Of a stretch of 64,000 bases of DNA, positions 16,128-17,773 are shown piece after piece. The notes below the pieces were generated by a model. That model did no database searches and was not told the origin of the DNA. It saw only the letters and a program-made list of their open reading frames with translations. This DNA comes from Rhizophagus irregularis (taxonomy: Eukaryota), in the NCBI RefSeq assembly GCF_026210795.1, contig NC_089434.1:3534001-3598000 (forward strand). The letters run 5' to 3'. Positions within the stretch are counted from its first letter, which is position 1; every line of letters begins with the position of its first letter. Both the position numbers and the translations under genes were made by a program.

Positions 16128-17773
16128 CTAGGCCGAGACATAGTTTTTCTCGTAGAATATCCCATCAACTTCGACACTACATGGTAATTTATTAATAAAA
16201 TCATTCAAAATTAATGAAAATTAACAATAAGATTTTTTTCAATGATATTTAATGAAGGTGAATTACTTACAAATCTCTTTTCGTCTTTTCCTATTATTAT
16301 TTAAAATGAAATGAAAATTAAAATTAACAGTTAATATTTTCAAAATATTAGAGTTTAGAATATTTATAGTAATACTTACAGTCAATTTCTTTATTGAAGA
16401 TAAAATGAAAATTAACGGTTAATATTTTTTTTAAAAAACAAGTGTAATCATAATATTAATGTTAACAATACTTACTTCCTGTTAATTGTTTAAAATAAAA
16501 TAAAAATTAACAATTAATATTTTTTAAAAATATGTAAAATAAGTGCAATCATAATGTGAATATACTTACGCAGCCTATTTATTGGTTAAAAATAAAATAA
16601 AAAAGAACGGTTAATATTTTTCAAAATAAATGTAATCATAATAATAATGGCAATTAAAATACTTACAGACTATTTATAATTTAAAGTAAAAGGATAGTTA
16701 ACAGTTATTAGTTTCAAAAATATGCACCATGATTAATACAAGGGAATAAAGATACTTACCGCCTATTTATTATTTAAAAATAAAATTAAAATTAAAAGTG
16801 AGTATTTCAAGACAATTGGAACCATAATAATTAATAATAACGGTAATGAAGATACTTACAATCTGATTATATTTATTATTTAAGTAAAAGGAAGATTAGC
16901 AGTTATTAATATATTTTAAAAAGAATAACATCAAGTACATCAAGTGTAACCATAATAATAACGGTAATGGAGATACTTACAGCCTATTTATTATTTATAA
17001 TAAAAGAAAAGTTAACAGTTAACATTTTTTTTTAAAAAAAAACAATAAACATCAAGTATAATAACACTTACCACCAACCCCTATTTGTTATTGAATAATA
17101 AAATAAAAATTAGCAGTTAATATTTATCAAAATCAAGTGTAACCAATAATGAATATATATACTTACAGCCTATTAATATTTTAGGAACAATAAAATAAAA
17201 ATTAACAATTAATATTTTTAAAAACGGGTGCAACCATAATAATAATGATAATGATAATGATTAATGAAAGTACTTACAGCCTATTCATTTTTTAAAAAGT
17301 AAAATAAAAGCTAACAGTTAGTATTTTCAAAAACAAATGTATGCGTAATATTGGTAGCAGTGAAGATACTTACATTCTATTTATTATTTAAAGTAAAAGG
17401 GAAATCAATGGTTAGTATTATTCAAAAACAAATGTAACCATAATAATAATGGCGATGATAACACAATAACATCAGCAGAGTGTAATGGTAATACTTACTA
17501 ACTGGACCTATTTATTAAAATGAAATAAAAATCAAAAATTTAATATTTTTCAAAAATAAGAACAATCATAATAATAACGATAACAGAGAAACTTACAATC
17601 GCCTATTTATTAATTAAAATAAAAGGAAAATTTAAACATTAACAGTTAATAATTTTTACATATTAATTGTAATGATAATAATGAATAAAATATTTACGTT
17701 CTTCAACAAGTGGTATTGCTAAAGCAGTAGCAGAGAAGATAATCAAAAAGAGAAGGAAGATATTGAAGTTCAT
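16128..17773 (-). CDS. Micro-exon gene encoding a 68-aa secreted Cys-rich peptide precursor (16 coding exons)
   Basis: Minus-strand exons: 17773-17698, 17602-17597, 17507-17499, 17376-17374, 17280-17278, 17169-17167, 17080-17072, 16983-16981, 16862-16860, 16762-16760, 16669-16667, 16574-16570, 16478-16476, 16388-16380, 16290-16271, 16176-16128. Every internal exon sits between an AG acceptor and a GTAAGT donor. Joined, they give 207 nt: MNFNIFLLFLIIFSATALAIPLVEERDCPVKCCWVGGYCVCCEKLTEKTKRDFVEVDGIFYEKNYVSA*. Confidence 0.85.

What the first reader, a model, noticed from the sequence alone, without database searches (positions are those of the whole stretch)
16380..17602. Micro-exon layout could generate a combinatorial peptide library by exon skipping
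SEEN: 12 of the 14 internal exons are multiples of 3 nt. The first 11 introns are all phase 1, so core codons are split 1+2 across junctions. Five of the six Cys codons are built as T|GY from two exons, and three micro-exons are the identical GCT. Skipping a phase-1 triplet exon keeps the frame and deletes or changes single residues, including Cys number and spacing. The only stop-creating join among these exons is T+AA, from skipping 17507-17499. The micro-exons cover the mature core and its short tail, while the signal peptide and the C-terminal peptide lie in ordinary exons. INFERENCE: alternative splicing may diversify the mature peptide at single-residue resolution.
Basis: inference. Interest (0 to 1): 0.85.

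Follow-up and report, generated by a model that had tools for sequence, protein, structure and literature searches.

The report
Codon-cassette peptide gene in mycorrhizal fungus
A mycorrhizal-fungus gene spells the cysteine core of a small, likely secreted peptide almost one codon at a time, in 3-9-base exons separated by look-alike introns, and similar arrays on kinase genes of related fungi suggest that these units likely diversify proteins by being copied, lost and swapped in the DNA, while the proposed exon-skipping peptide library remains untested.

Summary
The gene has 16 exons (minus strand, 17773-16128) and encodes a 68-aa prepropeptide identical to Rhizophagus irregularis RIR_jg32637.t1, with core C-x3-CC-x5-C-x-CC. 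Indirect evidence favours one full-inclusion product. A 72%-identical intron-free homologue keeps core length and all six Cys. Only 4 of 14 single skips keep six Cys in frame. Introns 1-14 are homologous, so tandem duplication of an intron+codon unit alone explains the phase and triplet pattern. An architecture search found 48 non-redundant arrays in metagenome contigs, 14 directly upstream of kinase-type exons. In 45 pure-triplet arrays, adjacent joins never make a stop (0 of 316, 12.5 expected), but skip joins are not purged of stops (12 of 271, 11.7 expected). Exon bases differ five times more than introns, and two ~99%-identical copies differ by one whole unit. Best reading: DNA-level codon-cassette diversification. 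Tuber nank and schistosome MEG precedents keep skipping alive (about 30%).

The parts
17698..17773 (-). Exon 1 (76 nt coding): predicted signal peptide and short pro-region; ends in phase 1
   Evidence: residues 1-25 of P0002; helix 5-19 in the AF2 model; shared with paralogues P0001, P0004, P0005 and L069
17597..17602 (-). Exon 2, 6 nt, phase 1-1
17499..17507 (-). Exon 3, 9 nt, phase 1-1; skipping it alone creates a stop
17374..17376 (-). Exon 4, 3 nt, phase 1-1
17278..17280 (-). Exon 5, 3 nt (GCT), phase 1-1
17167..17169 (-). Exon 6, 3 nt (GCT), phase 1-1
17072..17080 (-). Exon 7, 9 nt, phase 1-1; predicted hairpin turn
16981..16983 (-). Exon 8, 3 nt (GCT), phase 1-1
16860..16862 (-). Exon 9, 3 nt, phase 1-1
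16760..16762 (-). Exon 10, 3 nt, phase 1-1
16667..16669 (-). Exon 11, 3 nt, phase 1-1
16570..16574 (-). Exon 12, 5 nt, phase 1-0; carries the last Cys pair; skipping shifts the frame
   Evidence: the similar exon in homologue L069 is 6 nt
16476..16478 (-). Exon 13, 3 nt, phase 0-0
16380..16388 (-). Exon 14, 9 nt, phase 0-0, AAG acceptor
   Evidence: length confirmed by P0002 and P0003
16271..16290 (-). Exon 15, 20 nt, phase 0-2; contains the KR dibasic (predicted Kex2) site; skipping shifts the frame
16128..16176 (-). Exon 16 (49 nt to the stop): C-terminal peptide, predicted second beta-hairpin
16291..17697 (-). Introns 1-14: a family of mutually homologous 86-122-nt introns (the repeated unit is intron + micro-exon); intron 15 (16177-16270) is the outlier
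   Evidence: mean score 0.31 against 0.11 for shuffles; intron 15 0.14; 0.34-0.39 to introns of homologues L069/L051, 0.13 to kinase-array introns, 0.09 to other AT-rich intron-like stretches

Best explanation
This 16-exon Rhizophagus irregularis gene encodes a 68-residue, likely secreted prepropeptide whose six-cysteine core is written in 3-9-nt exons between mutually homologous introns; it likely arose by tandem copying of an intron-plus-codon unit, likely makes mainly one full-inclusion peptide, and likely diversifies between gene copies by DNA-level gain, loss and replacement of these codon cassettes rather than by exon skipping. SHOWN: the exon model, its identity with a public record, intron homology, a full-length homologue with the same core, and in related loci stop-free phase-1 arrays, excess exon divergence and a one-unit copy-number difference. 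INFERRED: a GCT-type unit, which yields Cys as T|GC when repeated in phase 1, seeded the core and point mutation made the other triplets; the ~95-nt introns act as homology arms for unequal crossover or gene conversion, so single residues are inserted, deleted or swapped without frameshift; short introns with consensus sites are spliced by intron definition; signal peptidase and Kex2-type cleavage release a neutral, three-disulfide beta-hairpin that binds a partner (microbe, host or other fungus) rather than lysing membranes.
For: Model equals P0002; its 90% cluster has 1 member. P0003 is intron-free and 49 of 68 identical, with all six Cys, no indel in micro-exon-coded residues, 3 of 17 core residues changed and its single gap in exon 1. 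Single skips: 4 of 14 keep six Cys in frame, 7 give an odd Cys number, 1 gives a stop and 2 shift the frame. Introns 1-14 are homologous. In 45 pure-triplet arrays (361 exons), adjacent phase-1 stops are 0 of 316 against 12.5 expected, but single-skip stops are 12 of 271 against 11.7 and all-skip stops 70 of 1355 against 53-71. In 11 array pairs, exon bases differ at 57 of 153 positions and intron bases at 276 of 4008. L089 has one more whole intron+triplet unit than the otherwise ~99%-identical L040, and acceptor-side intron sequence is linked to the triplet it precedes (1.88 against a null of 0.22, max 1.02). Skipped exons are 3% of fungal AS events (PMC3925392, passages).
Against: No transcript of this gene was seen, so constitutive inclusion is not shown. 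Absence of stop purging does not exclude useful skipping, since about 5% loss is cheap. The DNA-shuffling evidence comes from kinase-type arrays in other genomes, not from this gene, whose introns are more diverged (0.34 against 0.48 within kinase arrays) and whose homologue shows no core indel. The exon/intron divergence may partly reflect out-of-register pairing of repeated units, and the L040/L089 difference could be an assembly artefact. A consensus assembly such as P0003 hides minor isoforms, and it could come from an intron-less gene. In Tuber, codon-sized exons are reported to be extensively alternatively spliced. AF2 confidence is modest (mean pLDDT 66).
Confidence: 0.55

Rival explanations
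1. Combinatorial exon skipping (first reader; Tuber nank / schistosome MEG type): each phase-1 triplet exon is included with probability below 1, so one gene secretes a library of peptides that differ by single residues and Cys spacing, on top of any DNA-level change.
For: 896 of 1024 subsets are open and give 560 distinct peptides. Micro-exons cover the core and tail but not the signal peptide. Both known precedents for this layout are reported to be alternatively spliced (PMC4986451, PMC13449251, PMC10197012, PMC4350168; passages). 3-nt exons are inherently hard to splice (general knowledge).
Against: No purging of skip-generated stops here (1 of 55 against 2.2) or in 45 related arrays. 268 of 560 products have an odd Cys number. 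The only two full-length records are both full-inclusion, and no deletion variant appeared in three protein searches or the cluster look-up, which is weak evidence because such databases keep one isoform.
Confidence: 0.3
2. Non-adaptive intron proliferation: a local slippage or duplication process copies an intron with three neighbouring bases, selection merely keeps the frame open, and neither splicing nor shuffling serves diversification.
For: Tandem duplication alone explains phase and 3n length. There is no sign of selection for skip tolerance. The genome region is rich in tandem repeats.
Against: Exon triplets differ about five times more than introns between near-identical arrays, and all three exon positions differ alike (21, 16, 20 of 51). 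The layout arose at least twice from unrelated seed introns, each time confined to a likely interaction region (a secreted core; the N-terminal side of kinases).
Confidence: 0.13
3. Artefact: a degenerate non-coding tandem repeat that mimics splice sites, with no real spliced product.
Against: Intron-free homologue P0003 is collinear with the 16-exon join. 0 of 316 adjacent stops in phase 1 against 70 in phase 2. The array ends join kinase exons in phase 1 where tested.
Confidence: 0.02

Closest known systems
Tuber melanosporum nank (NACHT-ankyrin NLR) genes with codon-sized micro-exons (Iotti et al. 2012; seen only through citing passages in PMC4986451, PMC13449251, PMC10197012)
   Same: Fungal symbiont; arrays of 3-nt exons in a likely recognition region.
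   Different: No NACHT or ankyrin domain here (no Pfam hit). Carriers are a secreted Cys peptide and TKL-type kinases in another phylum. Alternative splicing is reported there and unshown here.
Schistosoma micro-exon genes, MEGs (PMC4350168, PMC10526429; passages)
   Same: Signal-peptide exon followed by tiny symmetrical exons coding the mature secreted part; fast evolution of the mature region.
   Different: MEG exons are mostly 15 nt with introns up to 5 kb, and MEGs are described as flatworm-restricted. Here 8 of 14 internal exons are 3 nt and introns are 86-122 nt and homologous. No homology to any family was found.
Fungal NLR repeats with high internal conservation (Podospora het-type) and brown-algal exon-per-repeat receptors (PMC13449251, passages)
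   Same: Near-identical tandem units that can be shuffled by recombination, with the variability concentrated in a few coding positions.
   Different: There the unit is a protein repeat. Here about 97% of the unit is intron and the coding payload is one codon.
Cys-rich secreted prepropeptides (fungal defensins, conotoxin-like superfamilies, hepcidin-like hairpins; recalled, from no call)
   Same: Conserved signal/pro exon with a variable, disulfide-rich mature region and basic cleavage sites.
   Different: Spacing C-x3-CC-x5-C-x-CC, net charge 0, and no Pfam, PDB-sequence or Foldseek match.

Membership tests
Schistosome MEG | N-terminal signal peptide | tested here: met
   hydrophobic residues 1-20 in exon 1, helix 5-19 in AF2; no dedicated signal-peptide predictor was available
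Schistosome MEG | Most of the coding region in very small symmetrical exons | tested here: inconclusive
   82 of 207 coding nt lie in the 14 internal exons, but the whole Cys core does; 12 of 14 are symmetrical
Schistosome MEG | Alternative splicing yields a pool of similar proteins | tested here: inconclusive
   no exonic reads in 3 RNA runs; only full-inclusion records found
Schistosome MEG | Platyhelminth gene with homology to MEG families | tested here: not met
   product is a Rhizophagus record; hits only to itself and fungal or soil records
Tuber nank codon-sized micro-exon genes | Array of 3-nt exons | tested here: met
   8 of 14 internal exons are 3 nt; 386 of 389 exons in 48 related arrays
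Tuber nank codon-sized micro-exon genes | NACHT and ankyrin domains | tested here: not met
   no Pfam family at E<=10
Tuber nank codon-sized micro-exon genes | Extensive alternative splicing of the mini-exons | tested here: inconclusive
   the second read-laying run gave no result
Fungal CS-alpha-beta defensin (features recalled) | Helix plus sheet with CxxxC/CxC framework, cationic | tested here: not met
   no helix in the modelled core, net charge 0, no Pfam or PDB hit
KEP / dikaritin RiPP precursor (features recalled) | Repeated cores between Kex2 sites | tested here: not met
   one core and one KR site; the signal-exon relative P0005 does have repeats
KEP / dikaritin RiPP precursor (features recalled) | DUF3328/UstYa oxidase nearby | tested here: inconclusive
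   none among the 11 window stretches scanned; not all 37 ORFs were scanned

The most novel reading that the evidence does not exclude
Arbuscular mycorrhizal fungi carry a lineage-wide, twice-evolved 'codon-cassette' diversifier: tandem intron+3-nt-exon units that are reshuffled in the DNA and also skipped combinatorially in the RNA. It would give hypervariable secreted peptides and hypervariable N-terminal sensor tails on their expanded kinases, a recognition code for a coenocytic symbiont that gene annotation largely misses.
Probability: 0.3. Interest if true: 0.92.

Novelty: new variant of a known kind. Interest (0 to 1): 0.72.

Why it matters
How arbuscular mycorrhizal fungi generate variation and tell self from non-self, and why they expanded tyrosine-kinase-like genes (expansion noted in PMC6123716, passages), are open questions. 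Arrays of one-codon exons on a secreted peptide family and on the N-terminal side of such kinases give a concrete, countable substrate: units can be scored across strain genomes, and isoforms with one amplicon. The layout also defeats gene callers (paralogue P0004 is annotated reading into an intron), so an unknown part of the secretome and kinome may be mis-annotated. Splicing up to 20 consecutive 3-nt exons is itself a test case for intron definition.

Tried and rejected
Run search: no RNA holder listed. Raw poly-A runs X22-X24 (about a quarter of each read; two are one sample) had zero depth on exon 1 and exon 16; the 61, 52 and 36 reads laid were nearly all partial matches to AT-rich introns, and their joints are not exon joints. 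No control gene was laid, so this says nothing on expression. X1 contigs match the DNA with no differences in the long pieces. A second lay, on four small assemblies, gave no result, which leaves the isoform question open. No whole genome is held, so paralogues in this genome could not be counted. A degenerate last-exon pattern found 0 metagenome stretches. Pfam, PDB sequences, Atlas (38: best 0.78, TM below 0.5) and Foldseek (77: no E<=0.001) gave nothing. Four look-ups of earlier findings were empty. Rejected: scarcity of stop joins as evidence of design for skipping; GC-richer pattern hits (e.g. L005, L011-L013, L016, L021, L037) as likely tandem-repeat false positives, filtered by array GC below 0.25; generic AT-richness as the cause of intron likeness. 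DeMarco 2010 is not held, and Iotti 2012 was not read.

Full report
OBSERVATION. The minus strand holds 15 donors spaced about 100 nt apart. Taking the AG before each gives 16 exons from 17773 to 16128. Internal exons are 6, 9, 3, 3, 3, 9, 3, 3, 3, 3, 5, 3, 9 and 20 nt. Introns are 86-122 nt, all GT-AG. Phases are 1 for introns 1-11, 0 for 12-14 and 2 for 15. The join is a 68-aa open frame: hydrophobic N-terminus, short acidic pro-region, a core C-x3-CC-x5-C-x-CC, a charged tail ending in KR, and a 17-aa C-terminal peptide. Chance is excluded: P(12 or more of 14 triplets)=8e-5, and the two-micro-exon pattern matches 3 times in the window, all in this gene, against 0 in 100 shuffles.

IDENTITY. 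A profile of exon 1 retrieved P0002, which is letter for letter this model and is named hypothetical protein RIR_jg32637.t1 of Rhizophagus irregularis DAOM 197198. I do not know whether that record rests on RNA. Three word-index searches and one exhaustive search found four further proteins. P0003 (MetaClust) is intron-free, 49 of 68 identical, and begins upstream in sequence resembling the window's 5' leader; it is most simply a spliced transcript. It keeps all six Cys, differs at 3 of 17 core residues against 5 of 9 in the tail, and has its only gap in exon 1. P0004 is an R. irregularis paralogue whose annotation turns, after D-C-D, into C-K-Y-Y-Y, the translation of a donor site, so it is likely a mis-called micro-exon gene (inference). 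P0001 is likewise an exon-1 read-through. P0005 shares the signal exon but carries repeats. No Pfam, PDB-sequence, Atlas or Foldseek match was found. AlphaFold2 on a two-row alignment (mean pLDDT 66) gives a hairpin at 32-41 and a second one in the last exon. The core has net charge 0.

IS IT SKIPPED? Not determined. No RNA holder was listed, three raw poly-A runs had no reads on the terminal exons, and the second lay returned nothing. In silico, 896 of 1024 subsets of exons 2-11 are open and give 560 peptides, but 19 keep six Cys and 268 have an odd number. Of 14 single skips, 4 keep six Cys in frame, 7 give an odd number, 1 stops and 2 shift the frame. The single latent stop is unremarkable: 1 of 55 joins against 2.2 in constrained shuffles, P=0.47.

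ORIGIN OF THE LAYOUT. With splice signals stripped, the introns score 0.31 against each other and 0.11 after local shuffling; 64 of 105 pairs exceed the null maximum, and intron 15 is the outlier. Introns 1-14 score 0.34-0.39 with introns of two homologous loci (L069, L051), but 0.13 with kinase-array introns and 0.09 with 23 other AT-rich intron-like stretches. So they are copies of one ancestral intron. Duplicating an intron with its neighbouring exon is tolerated only if the exon is 3n and symmetrical, and repeating a GCT unit in phase 1 writes Cys after Cys. This accounts for all the SEEN features without skipping (inference).

RELATIVES. Filtering for chains of 4 or more exons and array GC below 0.25 left 57 arrays in 53 of 121 loci. 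Nine near-duplicates were dropped, leaving 48 with 4-20 exons; 386 of 389 exons are 3 nt. One, L069, is a secreted homologue with a signal exon, a Gly-rich exon and a C-C-x-C start. Fourteen of 48 are followed within 400 nt by the N-terminal exon of a kinase family, and 28 of 48 have under 250 nt left in the locus. The downstream exon of L002 is PF07714, with nearest Atlas clusters mostly Mucoromycota; the taxon of the other loci is inferred from this likeness only. L073 has TPR-like exons upstream of its array. In the 45 pure-triplet arrays (L060, L069 and L111 left out), adjacent joins give 0 stops of 316 in phase 1, against 12.5 expected and 70 in phase 2, so full inclusion is under selection. 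Skip joins are not purged: 12 of 271 single skips against 11.7 (within-array null) or 13.9 (pooled null), and 70 of 1355 in all against 53 or 71. In 11 non-overlapping array pairs of 84-97% identity, exon bases differ at 57 of 153 positions and intron bases at 276 of 4008. Out-of-register pairing can inflate this, but that itself means like introns carry unlike codons. L089 has one more intron+triplet unit than L040, which is otherwise about 99% identical, and the acceptor-side intron sequence tracks the triplet that follows it. Several loci may come from the same species, so these counts are not independent genomes.

MECHANISM. Most likely (0.55): the array is a DNA-level cassette system, in which homologous introns serve as recombination arms to add, drop or swap single residues, while each gene makes mainly its full-inclusion product. 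In this gene the array looks older and its Cys framework is conserved, so it probably yields one disulfide-stapled hairpin released by signal peptidase and Kex2-type cleavage. Rivals: functional skipping (0.30), neutral intron proliferation (0.13), artefact (0.02). The first two are not exclusive. Skipped exons make up 3% of fungal AS events (PMC3925392, passages), but the Tuber precedent shows that codon-sized exons can be an exception.

COMPARISON. It works like Tuber nank genes and schistosome MEGs in layout, and like high-internal-conservation NLR repeats in its likely shuffling, but it belongs to none of these families (membership table). Papers seen as passages: PMC4986451, PMC10526429, PMC11121469, PMC10234402, PMC12155092, PMC6123716, PMC4350168, PMC13449251, PMC10197012, PMC3925392. 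The rest were seen as search listings only, and no supplements were read; annotation tables there may list this gene. Searches for a report in these fungi: 'micro-exon' + 'Rhizophagus', 0 papers; 'Rhizophagus irregularis' + 'microexons', 2, both on Lotus circular RNA; 'Glomeromyco' + 'microexon', 3 held and 2 listed, one of which refers to Tuber; none of 20 listed held 'microexon'. The long-read assembly paper PMC10234402 has no micro-exon passage in its main text. Subscription journals are not covered.

VERDICT. Observation confirmed; skipping library possible but unshown. The stronger result is a family-wide, at least twice-evolved array of one-codon exons in probable Glomeromycotina genes, with signs of DNA-level cassette turnover. 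New variant of a known kind; interest 0.72.

Noticed in passing
L001, L006, L020, L042, L075, L110 and other loci: Arrays of up to 20 consecutive 3-nt phase-1 exons, in several loci directly 5' of kinase-family exons, encoding D/N/Y/W-rich variable peptides; 15 of 48 contain the same two-exon motif coding Trp and 8 start with it. Deserves its own study.
   Followed up: partly
L073:140-1680 (+); TPR/SPRY exons also in L039 and L059: Micro-exon arrays lie downstream of SPRY-TPR exons; in L073 the exon chain appears continuous from the TPR exon into the array.
   Followed up: partly
L092 (707 nt, GC 0.37): A GC-richer chain of 3-nt exons between ~93-nt repeated introns with a different consensus: possibly a third, independent micro-exon array in another eukaryote, or a tandem repeat.
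   Followed up: no
P0005 (protein): Shares the signal exon family but carries repeated GYPIA-type units after basic residues, like a KEP or RiPP precursor (resemblance recalled).
   Followed up: no
P0004 (GET58166.1 / PKC58984.1): R. irregularis paralogue annotated as reading into an intron; likely another micro-exon peptide gene.
   Followed up: partly
window 17971-19237: Upstream region triplicated in blocks about 420 and 600 nt apart (72-95% alike), overlapped by an ~880-nt element with inverted ends (18611-18773 / 19313-19494), MITE-like.
   Followed up: no
window 121-795 (+) and 9215-9550 (-): Two more likely secreted Cys-rich proteins: one with Thr-rich mucin-like tracts and a C-terminal Cys knot-like motif, one of ~95 aa with ten Cys; no confident Pfam hit.
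   Followed up: no
window 13899-14600, 23108-24030, 33916-34950, 44960-45780, 54840-55700: Five dispersed copies (both orientations, about 80-90% alike) of a two-ORF element without a Pfam match.
   Followed up: no
window 5260-7081 (+): Multi-exon histidine acid phosphatase gene (PF00328).
   Followed up: no
window 26785-27043, 20323-20425, 48841-49062, 35700-36270: Tandem repeats of 41, 31, 74 and ~38 nt, without the micro-exon pattern.
   Followed up: no
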